Part shown: positions 8,601-11,600 of the stretch, in pieces
Layout of the letters: every line of letters starts with the position of its first letter
Numbering within the stretch: the stretch's first letter is position 1
Assembly (NCBI RefSeq): GCF_053078305.1
Contig: NZ_CP166879.1
Strand: one strand, 5' to 3'
Length of the DNA: 64,000 bases
Program-made: the position numbers

Positions 8601-11600
8601 GCCTGTCAGCGCCAGCGAGGATCTCGGTGCAGGTACGCATGTTGAAGTCATTGCGATAGAAGGGATAACGCTGATCATCCGTGCGGTCATCGCCTGATGC
8701 GACGCTGACGCGTCTTATCATGACTACAAAATATGCCCGAATCGTAGGCCAGATAAGGCGCTTGCGCCGCATCCGGCAGTCGTGCACCGAAGCCTGATGC
8801 GGCGCGGGCGCGTCATATCACGCCAAAACCGTAGGCCGCCTCCGCCATGTTAAATGTTAACTGGCATTGGCAATTTACTCTTCCCGGCCTTTACTCATAC
8901 TTTTTTGGTCTTCATCCGGATAGTGTTTTTTTAGATATTCCAGGACGTTTTTATTGACCTTGTGTTGCGTATACACCCACCCTTTCCAGTAATCAGGCTG
9001 GTCCAGGTAAACTTCTGGCGGAATGGTGAAATCAGAAAGCGTTAACCATTCGGCTAACAGATCGGGGTTTCGTTTCTGGATCAACTGCAACAGCATAATC
9101 AGCGACATGGCAGAGGCAGGAGCCGTACTATCGCCGCTTAAATACTTCCATACTGTCGACCGGTTCGAACGAAAAAGGATCGGTAGCAATGCCCGGTCCA
9201 GATTCATTTCATTAAAAATCTTCTCAAATTCATTCATTTAAATTTTCCTGCCTGGCGTAAACCTCTTAAAAATTGAGATTTATCAAAGAAACGCATTTTA
9301 GCACACATCAGGAACCGCTTCACGTTTAGTCCAGAAACAGAATTTATTTCGCTTATCAAAACAAGTCTTTACTCTTTTTTACATTGAAAGAGCACGAAAT
9401 GATTTCCTTTTTTATTTATAAAAGAAACAATTTTTGTTTCTTATTGGTGGTGTTTACGCTTACATCAAACAAAAATGCGCTTTACATCACACAAATGGCG
9501 GCGTAGATTTCGATCAAATTGCAACGCAGATTAATTCTTATAACAACGTTTTATGTTGCTTATAGAAACAAATATGTGACTTACTTTGGACGAGAAAAAA
9601 TACATGAATACTGTAAAGTTGTCTTTACTGGCTGTCGTTGTTGCTACCGCAGTAAGTCCATCTGCGTTTGCGGGTGATACTGTTGAGGCGGCAGCGACAG
9701 AATTAGCGGCAATCCAGCCAGGAATGTCGCAAGTGGAAATTGATCAGAAAATTGGTCGATTTTTAGAAAGGACAGGAAATAGCGCAGCCGCACAAAATTA
9801 TCTGATTGCGCATGATTACCAGACAACGACGCCTCAGGAAAATACAACTGCTTCTCCCGTACAGCCCGCCAGTACGCTGAACCCGATAACCAATCAAGCG
9901 CAGACCGTCCGCGACAACGGGCAGGACACCGCCATTCAGGACGCGCAACATGCCGCCAACTGGGCGTCGCAAAAAGCTGATGATGCGCACCATGCCATTA
10001 TGGTGGCGCAGACGGATATTGATGCCAATAAAGCCGCCATCACCGACACCCGCAATGATGTCTCCGCAGTGCAGTCAGACGTCACCAACATAAAAGCCGA
10101 TGTCGCACATGCTCAGTCAACGGCTGACCATGCCAACGCTAACGCCAACACCGCTCTGATGAACGGCGTCAAACTTTCCGGTGCTGTGACAGAAAACAAA
10201 AACAATATCGAACAGAACCGCAGCGATATTGCTGACCAGCAGAAACGGCTGGCATCAAACGAGCACAAACAGACCGTCCGCGACAACGAGCAGGACACCG
10301 CCATTCAGGACGCACAACATGCCGCCAACTGGGCTTCACTGAAAGCTGATGACGCGCAGCACGCCATCACGGTGGCGCAGACGGATATTGATGCCAATAA
10401 AGCCGCCATCGCCGACACCCGTAATGATGTCTCCGCAGTGCAGTCAGACGTCACCAACATAAAAGCCGATGTCACACATGCCCAGTCAACGGCTGACCAT
10501 GCTAACGCTAACGCCAACACCGCTCTGATTAACGGCGTCAAACTTTCCGGTGCTGTGACAGAAAACAAAAATAATATCGAACAGAACCGCAGCGATATTG
10601 CTGACCAACAGCAACAACTCGACGAAACCCGGAAAACCGTTGCCGCCACCGGGGATGTGCAGACTGCCGCCCGATATCAGAGCATGATTGACGCCAGACA
10701 GACAGCCGCTGCCAATGCGCAACAGGAACAAGCGGACACCCAGCAGCAACAAATGGACGATCAGCAGAAACAAATCGACGCGACGCAAAAAACGGTTTCC
10801 GCACTTGGCGATGCCCAGACCAACGCACATTATCAAGAGATGGTTAACGCCGGACTGAGAGCACAAAATGATGCGAATGCGCGTACTGCAGCAGAACAAA
10901 AACAAAAAATAGATACTCTGGCGACTAACCAGGCAACGCAACAGCATATCGATAGTGTGCAGTACGGGGAACAAATTCAGCGTCTGGCGCAAGACTCAAC
11001 GCAAACGCATGAACAAATTGACAGCCTGACACAAGACGTAACCCAAACGCATCAGCAGTTAAGCAACACGCAAAAACGAGTAGCGGATAATAGCCAACAG
11101 ATTACTACGCTCAATAACCATTTCAGTTCGCTGAAAAACGAAGTTGAGGATAATCGTAAAGAAGCCAATGCGGGAACTGCATCTGCCATCGCTATCGCCT
11201 CACAACCACAGGTTAAAACCGGTGACGTGATGATGGTGTCAGCGGGAGCGGGAACCTTCAACGGTGAATCTGCGGTGTCTGTAGGAACATCTTTTAATGC
11301 CGGAACGCATACCGTGATTAAAGCCGGTGTCTCTGCGGATACACAATCTGATTTCGGCGCGGGTGTCGGCGTGGGATATTCGTTCTAATATTTCAATCCT
11401 CAATATAAATAAGAGCAAGGAAGCTTGCCGGTTTTCACCTCTTCATTAATTTGTACATTATTTAAGGTTAACAATGATGAATAGCTCCATTAAATCGTTT
11501 TCCCTGCTGGCGGTTATATTACTGGCTGGCTGTAGCTCACCCGCTTCCCGCATCGCAGATTGCCAGGCGCAGGGCGTCAGCCATGACACCTGTTATCTCG

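What the first reader, a model, noticed from the sequence alone, without database searches (positions are those of the whole stretch)
8875..9603. Divergent HTH-like gene and AT-rich spacer upstream of the TAA-like gene
A 120-aa ORF with a Cro/YdaS-like helix-turn-helix segment is transcribed divergently from the adhesin gene across a 350-bp AT-rich region. This is a typical layout for a local regulator of a horizontally acquired, probably H-NS-silenced adhesin gene.
Basis: inference. Interest (0 to 1): 0.45.

Follow-up and report, generated by a model that had tools for sequence, protein, structure and literature searches.

The report
Small HTH regulator beside adhesin gene
The 120-residue gene is real, expressed and conserved, folds like a phage-type DNA-binding switch, and almost always sits back-to-back with a surface adhesin gene, so it is probably that gene's uncharacterised local regulator; the paper that named the adhesin a transcription factor (GmrA) overlooked it.

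Summary
Window 8875-9237 (-) is a 120-aa gene, diverging across a 366-bp spacer of 32% GC from a YadA-type trimeric autotransporter adhesin (TAA) gene starting at 9604.

The gene is under strong purifying selection and is transcribed in published RNA-seq. In five lineages and four chromosomal sites, relatives down to about 32% identity lie divergent from a TAA gene. One locus has no TAA.

The spacer holds a conserved promoter for each gene. It also holds five AGAAAC/GTTTCT hexamers (0.31 expected), one pair forming a 19-bp palindrome. These recur at matching positions in other genera.

Best reading: a dedicated, probably autoregulating, XRE-type regulator of the TAA operon. The direction of control is unresolved. 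Published data argue against an obligate activator. H-NS silencing is untested, and the TAA is not silent. This is a new member of a known kind, of moderate interest.

The parts
8875..9237 (-). z0640 orthologue: 120-aa gene (WP_001001646.1 / UniProt Q8XD06), annotated 'hypothetical protein'
   Evidence: ORF. RefSeq annotation. The published z0640 deletion primer arms map exactly to 8836-8874 and 9238-9275. Purifying selection. RNA-seq and qRT-PCR expression.
9034..9237 (-). N-terminal Cro/C1 (XRE) helix-turn-helix domain, residues about 1-68 (helices 3-11, 15-22, 26-34 = predicted recognition helix RSTVWKYLS, 41-56, 58-70)
8878..9033 (-). C-terminal helical domain, residues about 69-120, conserved motif LSDFTIPPEVYLxQPDYWKGW..HKVNKxVLEYLK; no known family; possibly dimerisation
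   Evidence: Conservation. Modelled with confidence to about residue 110; the last 10-residue block has pLDDT 60. No Pfam, PHROG or NCBIfam match. Replaced by unrelated sequence in the Hafnia relatives. The dimerisation role is inference.
9238..9603 (.). 366-bp AT-rich divergent control region (32% GC)
   Evidence: Spacer length is 359-408 bp in the full-length relatives read.
9295..9303 (-). Predicted extended -10 promoter of z0640 (TGCTAAAAT on the minus strand); predicted start about 9288
   Evidence: TGnTAAAAT or TGnTATCAT is conserved in five genera (alignment) and present in the Hafnia, L025 and L026 spacers. Not detected by the -35/-10 scan because the -35 is poor. This is a prediction, not a mapped start.
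9287..9292 (-). GTTTCT hexamer 1, 2 nt downstream of the z0640 -10, overlapping its predicted transcription start (candidate auto-operator)
   Evidence: Invariant columns in the five-genus alignment. Same position (55-58 nt from the HTH start codon) in Pseudocitrobacter, Symbiopectobacterium and L008.
9333..9338 (-). GTTTCT hexamer 2, about 45-50 nt upstream of the predicted z0640 start
   Evidence: Conserved position (101-103 nt from the HTH ATG) in E. coli, Pseudocitrobacter and Symbiopectobacterium.
9423..9441 (.). 19-bp palindrome AGAAACAA-TTT-TTGTTTCT between the two promoters (hexamers 3 and 4)
   Evidence: 8-bp perfect arms: about 0.006 expected in 366 bp (own arithmetic). One-mismatch equivalent in Symbiopectobacterium. 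Hafnia L013 has AAGAACAT-TTA-ATGTTCTT with the same geometry at the same central position.
9481..9509 (+). Predicted sigma-70 promoter of the TAA gene: TTTACA-17 nt-TAGATT; predicted start about 9516, 5'UTR about 88 nt
   Evidence: The only promoter-like site found by the scan. The scan alone is not significant: 1 found, 2.3 expected. It coincides with the most conserved block of the five-genus spacer alignment. Not experimentally mapped.
9460..9495 (+). Direct repeat TTACATCA(A/C)ACAAA x2, 22 bp apart; the second copy overlaps the TAA -35
   Evidence: Function unknown.
9555..9569 (.). Hexamer 5 (AGAAAC 9564-9569) in the predicted TAA 5'UTR, 35 nt before the ATG; imperfect palindrome GTTGCTTATAGAAAC
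   Evidence: The O157:H7 allele is a perfect GTTTCT-ATA-AGAAAC. A GTTTCT lies 34-37 nt from the TAA start in every full-length-family locus read.
9604..11388 (+). YadA-type trimeric autotransporter adhesin gene (594 aa from ATG 9604). It is the orthologue of z0639, published as 'gmrA'. It carries a 369-bp tandem duplication at 9901-10615.
   Evidence: YadA_anchor domain. Anchor matches to AtaA, Hia and YadA structures. Signal peptide read from the sequence. The gmrA deletion, cloning and FLAG primers bracket this ORF. Duplication.
11474..11896 (+). 140-aa lipoprotein gene (z0638 orthologue), downstream of the TAA gene
   Evidence: Lipobox LLAGC read. RefSeq annotates it as 'lipoprotein'. z0638 primers map here. 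A gene of 137-156 aa follows the TAA in L003, L005, L009, L013/14 and L026.
11893..12096 (+). 67-aa hydrophobic ORF overlapping the lipoprotein stop; last gene of the cassette before cueR
   Evidence: 65-68-aa counterparts in L003-L005 and L009.
8700..8860 (.). REP/BIME elements between ybbJ and the 3' end of z0640 (left border of the island)
   Evidence: The query that included this stretch gave 23,293 places in 5424 genomes, against one place per genome without it. Rfam naRNA4 (REP-derived) at 8747-8824, 60.4 bits.

Best explanation

It is the dedicated local transcription factor of a mobile four-gene cassette: HTH gene, divergent from TAA, lipoprotein and small membrane protein.

Proposed mechanism (inferred, not shown): the protein binds AGAAAC(A)/(T)GTTTCT half-sites in the 366-bp spacer. 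These sites are:
- one overlapping its own predicted transcription start, giving autorepression;
- a 19-bp palindrome midway between the two back-to-back promoters;
- one site or palindrome in the TAA 5' leader.

This would set the level of TAA-operon transcription, most likely by dampening it. The AT-rich spacer may also be bound by H-NS, but that is untested.
For: SHOWN
1. The gene is real. Orthologues with pN 0 and pS 0.18-0.37; dN/dS about 0.07 between E. coli and Pseudocitrobacter. Present in 1415 of 5426 complete E. coli genomes, single copy, chromosomal. Transcribed at RPKM 43.5 in DMEM and switched off together with the TAA on HeLa attachment (Table S3 of PMC5826968).
3. Conserved gene pair. 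Relatives of 32-83% identity lie divergent from a YadA_anchor gene across 308-408 bp. This holds in Pseudocitrobacter (between fetA and qmcA), a JGI metagenome contig beside an Xre-RES pair, L009, L010/11, Hafnia and L026 (between ribE and an MFS gene), as well as Escherichia. In Symbiopectobacterium the partner is a TAA truncated by a stop codon. The TAA anchors have diverged more (39-52% identity) than the HTH protein.
4. Spacer motif. AGAAAC/GTTTCT occurs 5 times in 366 bp against 0.31 expected; 0 of 20,000 Markov simulations reached 5. It is the only such cluster in 64 kb. It is the top or joint-top hexamer in the spacers of six other loci, at matching distances from both start codons. The columns are invariant in the five-genus alignment.

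INFERRED
5. In Hafnia the recognition-helix region changes from NRSTxxK to PRNTxxN, and the repeated motif changes to TGTTC. The central 8-3-8 palindrome is kept at the same position. This fits a co-evolving dedicated factor better than a universal host factor.
6. Site positions (own transcription start, TAA leader) suggest repression.
Against: - No binding or regulation experiment exists.
- Both promoters are predictions. The scan alone found no more sites than shuffles give.
- Most hexamers are single half-sites. Palindrome geometry is not uniform across loci: N3, N5 and N7 spacings in both polarities.
- The hexamer was chosen after looking at the data. Bonferroni over 2080 hexamers leaves about 0.04 for E. 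coli alone; the case rests on recurrence across genera.
- One relative, L025, has no TAA neighbour.
- GAAACA and TTTACA resemble OmpR half-sites (from memory).
Confidence: 0.55

Rival explanations
1. [not shown]
For: The central palindrome lies upstream of the predicted TAA promoter, a position typical of activators and H-NS antagonists. The spacer is 32% GC in a 55% GC window. z0640 and the TAA rise and fall together. TAA transcription peaks at 37 C and falls with osmolarity, as many H-NS-controlled genes do (general knowledge).
Against: The z0640 deletion does not phenocopy the TAA deletion. A TAA clone without z0640 complements the island deletion. The other conserved hexamers sit at the z0640 start and in the TAA leader. 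No H-NS data were found for this island.
Confidence: 0.2
2. [not shown]
For: The best sequence and structure matches are antitoxin HTH domains (MqsA, HigA2) and Aca proteins. The most distant relatives, P0039 and P0043, sit in recombinase-bearing mobile-element contexts without a TAA. L025 has the gene without a TAA. The z0640 deletion had no phenotype.
Against: There is no toxin gene. The only upstream ORF is a 41-aa TTG ORF that starts upstream of the predicted promoter and has no homologues. The pairing survives while the TAA anchor diverges to 39-52% identity and the cassette moves among at least four chromosomal sites. Strong purifying selection. No phage or true plasmid copies. The motif extends into the TAA leader.
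Confidence: 0.15
3. [not shown]
For: GAAACA and TTTACA resemble the halves of ompC/ompF OmpR boxes (from memory, not tested here). TAA transcription falls with added NaCl or KCl and away from pH 7. There is a TTACATCAnACAAA direct repeat at 22-bp spacing and GTTTCT at 22-bp spacing in L008 and L010.
Against: The motif changes to TGTTC in Hafnia, where the HTH protein has diverged; OmpR is, from general knowledge, highly conserved across these genera. The 8-3-8 inverted-repeat geometry suits a symmetric HTH dimer better than tandem response-regulator sites (inference).
Confidence: 0.15
4. The ORF is not a functional gene: a chance ORF in AT-rich DNA.
For: No Pfam, NCBIfam or PHROG family. Annotated only as hypothetical. 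Some frameshifted alleles exist (cluster of 14).
Against: dN/dS is near 0 to 0.1. A confident fold. RNA-seq and qRT-PCR signal. 568 near-identical members, one of them seen on over 1000 contigs.
Confidence: 0.01

Closest known systems
MqsA / HigA2-type antitoxin HTH domains (Pfam PF15731 C-terminal region; PDB 3GN5, 5J9I)
   Same: Five-helix Cro/C1 HTH with the extended helix 4-5 tail (...LLxxLxKxPELLxE). Best sequence-level hit and top Foldseek hit. These proteins autoregulate through palindromic operators at their own promoter (established knowledge).
   Different: No toxin partner gene and no MqsA zinc-ribbon domain. The scores are below Pfam thresholds. There is a different C-terminal domain. 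The conserved partner is a TAA operon transcribed divergently, not a co-transcribed toxin.
Aca2 / YdiL / SO3848-type small HTH proteins (PDB 7VJO, 1S4K, 2OX6)
   Different: Sequence identity is only 10-18%. Full-length superposition is poor: rmsd 7-9 A, TM 0.41. There is no anti-CRISPR or phage context. No DUF1870 or other Pfam hit.
Restriction-modification controller (C) proteins and phage Cro/CI switches
   Same: Small XRE HTH proteins acting at short AT-rich control regions, with repeated half-sites and autoregulation. They appear among the structural matches: C.Esp1396I, C.EcoT38IS, C.AhdI, lambda cI, P2 C.
   Different: The partner genes here are an adhesin operon. Operator architecture and cooperative binding are unproven.
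[not shown]
   Same: Same island. It is the only experimental work on this locus and supplies expression data and deletion phenotypes for z0640.
Other regulators of enterobacterial TAAs (from memory: H-NS for UpaG/EhaG, IbrAB for Eib proteins, VirF for YadA)
   Same: Horizontally acquired TAA genes under local or silencing control.
   Different: None of these is an XRE-type protein encoded divergently from the TAA gene. This comparison was recalled, not tested here.

Membership tests
Cro/C1 (XRE, lambda-repressor-like) HTH superfamily | Compact helical bundle of four or five helices, with helices 2 and 3 forming the helix-turn-helix | tested here: met
   [not shown]
Cro/C1 (XRE, lambda-repressor-like) HTH superfamily | Sequence match to a curated HTH model above its threshold (e.g. 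PF01381 HTH_3) | tested here: not met
   The window protein gives only MqsA_antitoxin E=0.081, 13.5 bits against a cut-off of 30. It has no NCBIfam hit. The listed hits of family members are sub-significant (best E 2.4e-5 to 2.9e-4); their scores against the cut-offs were not reported. The profile against PDB gives E=0.71 to an Xre antitoxin.
Cro/C1 (XRE, lambda-repressor-like) HTH superfamily | Sequence-specific DNA binding, usually as a dimer on an inverted repeat | not testable with these tools
   Candidate sites only: the 19-bp palindrome at 9423-9441 and conserved GTTTCT half-sites.
Type II antitoxin (MqsA / HigA type) | Adjacent, co-transcribed toxin gene | tested here: not met
   The gene lies alone between REP elements and the spacer. 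The only overlapping upstream ORF is 41 aa with a TTG start, has no family hit, and starts upstream of the predicted promoter.
Type II antitoxin (MqsA / HigA type) | MqsA N-terminal zinc-binding toxin-neutralising domain | tested here: not met
   [not shown]
Anti-CRISPR-associated (Aca) repressors | Encoded next to an anti-CRISPR gene in a phage or mobile element | tested here: not met
   No phage match. The neighbours are a TAA operon and core genes.
Dedicated local regulator of the divergent TAA operon | Conserved divergent pairing with the target gene across taxa and insertion sites | tested here: met
   Of the loci with an HTH relative of at least about 32% identity on a contig long enough to judge, all but two have a YadA anchor on the opposite strand. 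The exceptions are a TAA truncated by a stop codon and one locus without a TAA.
Dedicated local regulator of the divergent TAA operon | Conserved candidate operators shared by both promoters | tested here: inconclusive
   GTTTCT enrichment and positional conservation are strong. The identity of the binding protein and the site geometry are unresolved.
Dedicated local regulator of the divergent TAA operon | Change in target transcription when the regulator is removed or overproduced | not testable with these tools
   Only indirect published data: the z0640 deletion had no motility or fliC/motA phenotype. z0639 mRNA in the z0640 deletion was not reported.
H-NS-silenced horizontally acquired locus | AT-rich relative to the genome; variable presence among strains | tested here: met
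   32% GC against 55%. Present in 26% of complete E. coli genomes.
H-NS-silenced horizontally acquired locus | H-NS occupancy and derepression in an hns mutant | not testable with these tools
   No data found. The TAA reaches RPKM 96 in DMEM, so it is not fully silent.

The most novel reading that the evidence does not exclude
Probability: 0.3. Interest if true: 0.6.

Novelty: new member of a known kind. Interest (0 to 1): 0.42.

Why it matters
OI-29 is carried by EHEC O157:H7, O55:H7, O145:H28 and many ExPEC, APEC and NMEC lineages. Reviews up to 2024 cite it as encoding a motility activator.

The 2018 paper states that how gmrA expression is regulated under host conditions remains to be established. 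A conserved HTH protein 366 bp away, with conserved candidate operators, is an obvious and directly testable candidate.

The primer mapping also shows that 'GmrA' is a signal-peptide-bearing YadA-type adhesin. That calls for re-examining how it affects fliA.

More generally, this defines a small family with no Pfam entry that marks a mobile HTH-TAA-lipoprotein cassette in Enterobacterales.

Tried and rejected
1. Upstream 41-aa TTG ORF (9234-9359, ATGA overlap with the z0640 start) as a toxin or leader peptide. It has no homologues. Its apparent conservation in P0021 is DNA conservation of the promoter and operator block. It starts upstream of the predicted -10. Rejected.
2. First AF2 run with 12 close sequences gave pLDDT 57 and was unusable. 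The rerun with 25 diverse sequences was used instead.
3. Sequence and profile searches of the PDB gave only noise (Esa1, cyclin E, Nup85) apart from one Xre antitoxin at E=0.71.
4. The afdb50 fold library was unavailable.
5. The match of the C-terminal domain to a 2772-aa protein (P0032) turned out to be a YDG/MBG-repeat type IX secretion (T9SS) protein. It was not followed further and is probably spurious.
6. Phage or plasmid origin: no phage hit; the two 'plasmid' hits are 4.9-Mb chromosomes.
7. Rfam: nothing in the spacer; only a REP-derived naRNA4 hit downstream of the gene.
8. The UniRef name 'IHP3' led only to the unrelated O145 ihp1 PCR marker.
9. The search for related loci failed with the diverse alignment. 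With the close alignment it returned only four species-level genomes.
10. A perfect GTTTCTGCCAGAAAC at 61099-61113 lies inside the ybaN coding sequence. It was judged coincidental.
11. IHF consensus in the spacer, checked by eye: no match.

Full report
WHAT IS THERE

The window is E. coli chromosome, 99.5% identical to strain PS10-3. The local gene order is fetB, fetA, qmcA, ybbJ, REP elements, the 120-aa ORF (8875-9237, minus strand), a 366-bp spacer, a TAA gene (9604-11388, plus strand), a 140-aa lipoprotein gene, a 67-aa ORF and cueR. Beyond cueR lie a type I secretion system and a 6925-aa adhesin.

The spacer has 32% GC against 55% for the window. It is the second most AT-rich 350-bp stretch in the 64 kb. 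The TAA has a YadA_anchor domain above the Pfam cut-off.

IDENTITY OF THE LOCUS

The four genes between ybbJ and cueR make up a variable island. It is present once, on the chromosome, in 1415 of 5426 complete E. coli genomes, including O157:H7, S88 and NU14.

A locus-tag search led to Yang et al. 2018 (PMC5826968). That paper describes O-island 29 of EDL933 as a 2,643-bp island holding z0638, z0639 ('gmrA') and z0640.

I mapped the primers of their Table S2 onto the window and onto an O157:H7 genome.
- The gmrA deletion arms, the pET-28a and FLAG cloning primers (ATGAAAACTGTAAACGTAGCTTTA = MKTVNVAL...; C-terminus ...GVGYSF) and the qPCR primers all bracket the TAA ORF.

IS THE ORF A GENE?

Yes.
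- Three Pseudocitrobacter loci encode the identical protein with 18-37% synonymous differences (pN 0.000-0.004). dN/dS between E. coli and Pseudocitrobacter is about 0.07.
- Its 90%-identity cluster has 568 member sequences, one of them seen on over 1000 contigs.
- Published RNA-seq gives RPKM 43.5 in DMEM (TAA 96.1, lipoprotein 20.4). All three drop to 0 on HeLa-attached cells, confirmed by qRT-PCR.
- A minority of alleles are frameshifted in the C-terminal half: a cluster of 14.

IS IT AN HTH PROTEIN?

At sequence level, only weakly. Pfam gives the MqsA_antitoxin HTH region at E=0.081, and NCBIfam and PHROGs give nothing useful.

The family is small: 21 proteins in 5.8 billion clusters, and 24 representatives at E<=1e-3 in an exhaustive profile search.

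Scanned one by one, members hit MqsA_antitoxin (7 of 25, best 2.4e-5), Xre-like-HTH, HTH_3 and HTH_26. hhalign places the family in register with MqsA residues 76-129 (E=0.0019). I confirmed the recalled MqsA sequence against the PDB.

With a 25-sequence alignment, AlphaFold2 gives pLDDT 91.3 and pTM 0.80. A 12-sequence alignment had given only 57.

Residues about 1-68 form the HTH domain, with the predicted recognition helix at R26-S34. Residues about 69-120 form a conserved helical domain with no known relatives.

ASSOCIATION WITH THE ADHESIN GENE

Every relative I could place on a long enough contig, except two, is divergent from a YadA_anchor gene across 308-408 bp.
- Pseudocitrobacter: 72-74% identity. 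The cassette is inserted between fetA and qmcA, not between ybbJ and cueR.
- A JGI contig beside an Xre-RES pair: 61%.
- L009: 48%, with two tandem TAAs.
- L010/L011: 43%.
- L026: 44%.
- Hafnia: 32%, N-terminal domain only, sited between ribE and an MFS gene.
- Escherichia sp. E1V33 and E. whittamii.

The two exceptions are as follows. In Symbiopectobacterium the partner is a TAA cut by a stop codon just before the anchor. L025 has no TAA at all.

The TAA anchors are only 39-52% identical to the E. coli one, while the HTH protein is better conserved.

The most distant relatives (E 1e-5 to 1e-3) sit in recombinase-bearing mobile elements, divergent from operons of small genes. This hints at a phage or mobile-element repressor ancestry. 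There are no copies in phage or genuine plasmid records.

THE SPACER

A five-genus alignment shows three kinds of conserved element.

1. A block containing TTTACA-17 nt-TAGATT (9481-9509, plus strand). It is the only promoter-like site in the scan, although the scan alone is not significant. It predicts a TAA start near 9516 and an 88-nt leader.

2. An extended -10, TGnTAAAAT (9295-9303, minus strand). It predicts a z0640 start near 9288.

3. The hexamer GTTTCT/AGAAAC.
- It occurs five times in 366 bp against 0.31 expected; none of 20,000 first-order Markov simulations reached five.
- It is the only cluster in the window.
- It is the top or joint-top hexamer in six other spacers.
- One copy lies 2 nt after the z0640 -10, 55-58 nt from the start codon in four lineages.
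- One lies 34-37 nt before the TAA start codon in every full-length-family locus. In O157:H7 that copy is a perfect GTTTCT-ATA-AGAAAC.
- Two copies form the palindrome AGAAACAA-TTT-TTGTTTCT at 9423-9441.

In Hafnia the recognition region reads PRNTxxN instead of NRSTxxK, and GTTTCT is absent. TGTTC is enriched instead (4-5 copies against about 0.9 expected). An 8-3-8 palindrome, AAGAACAT-TTA-ATGTTCTT, occupies the same central position.

Rfam finds nothing in the spacer.

HOW IT MOST LIKELY WORKS

Shown:
- an HTH fold;
- purifying selection;
- transcription;
- conserved divergent pairing with the TAA gene;
- conserved, enriched spacer motifs.

The direction of control is open. The site positions suggest repression. 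The published genetics exclude an obligate activator under laboratory conditions: the z0640 deletion does not phenocopy the TAA deletion, and a pACYC184 clone of window-equivalent 9285-11389 without z0640 complements the island deletion. The same data show no hypermotility that would signal strong repression. They rest on an indirect phenotype.

H-NS involvement is plausible from base composition and from the 37 C optimum. It is untested, and the TAA is not silent.

An alternative binder of the GAAACA and TTTACA elements is OmpR. This is recalled similarity, set beside the reported osmolarity and pH dependence.

COMPARISON AND NOVELTY

Functionally it resembles small XRE autoregulators such as antitoxin HTH domains, Aca proteins, restriction-modification controller proteins and Cro/CI.

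It belongs to the Cro/C1 fold superfamily by structure. It meets no curated sequence model and fails the defining features of antitoxins (no toxin gene, no zinc domain) and of Aca proteins (no anti-CRISPR or phage context).

I know of no XRE-type regulator described as the divergent partner of a TAA gene; this rests on my own knowledge and the literature searches.

It is a new member of a known kind. Interest is moderate. What raises it is that the locus is already in the EHEC literature with the regulator role assigned to the wrong gene product, and that the regulation of that gene is an acknowledged open question.

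Noticed in passing
[not shown]
   Followed up: yes
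window 9901-10615: There is a 369-bp (123-aa) tandem duplication, 1.9 copies at 94% identity, inside the TAA passenger. The window allele is 594-600 aa against 338 aa in O157:H7, so stalk length is strain-variable.
   Followed up: partly
L001 5987-7789 and L002 (RefSeq PS10-3, EC1515): RefSeq annotates the TAA from an internal start (349 aa, from 6740) although the full 600-aa ORF is intact. This is an annotation artefact.
   Followed up: yes
L001 8588-9811; absent from window (12097-12099 junction): Some strains (PS10-3, EC1515) carry an extra 407-aa hypothetical gene (WP_000898667.1) between the 67-aa ORF and cueR. The window and O157:H7 lack it.
   Followed up: no
window 8747-8824 (and 8658-8724): The REP/BIME elements downstream of z0640 match Rfam naRNA4 (CssrE) just above the gathering score on the plus strand (60.4 against 59.5 bits). 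They mark the ybbJ-side border of the island.
   Followed up: partly
window 12504-36619: On the other side of cueR lie a HlyD adaptor, an ABC exporter and a 6925-aa repeat-rich RTX-type adhesin ORF that is intact here. The EAEC 042 genome paper describes the syntenic substrate gene as frameshifted in 042 and O157:H7.
   Followed up: no
window 61099-61113: A perfect palindrome GTTTCTGCCAGAAAC, of the same type as the O157 TAA-leader site, lies inside the ybaN coding sequence. About 0.004 would be expected in 64 kb. It is probably coincidence.
   Followed up: partly
window 9460-9495: There is a direct repeat TTACATCA(A/C)ACAAA, twice at 22-bp spacing, with the second copy overlapping the predicted TAA -35. 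GTTTCT copies are also spaced 22 bp apart in L008 and L010. This suggests phased binding of some factor.
   Followed up: no
z0640 alleles (cluster of P0018; P0006, P0016): A minority of E. coli alleles carry a frameshift after residue about 76 that replaces the C-terminal domain (14 member sequences). The gene is therefore decaying in some lineages.
   Followed up: partly
window 38024-38373: This is the most AT-rich 350-bp stretch of the window (28.9% GC), just beyond the 5' end of the giant adhesin gene. It was not examined.
   Followed up: no
protein Q8XD06 / WP_001001646.1: UniRef names this protein 'IHP3'. The origin of the name could not be traced. The 'ihp1' found in the literature is an O145:H28 PCR marker.
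   Followed up: partly
L016-L019 (relatives P0039, P0043): The most distant family members sit in mobile-element-like islands, with a serine recombinase and T5orf172/DUF2971 genes. They are divergent from operons of small unknown genes, like a phage or island repressor.
   Followed up: no
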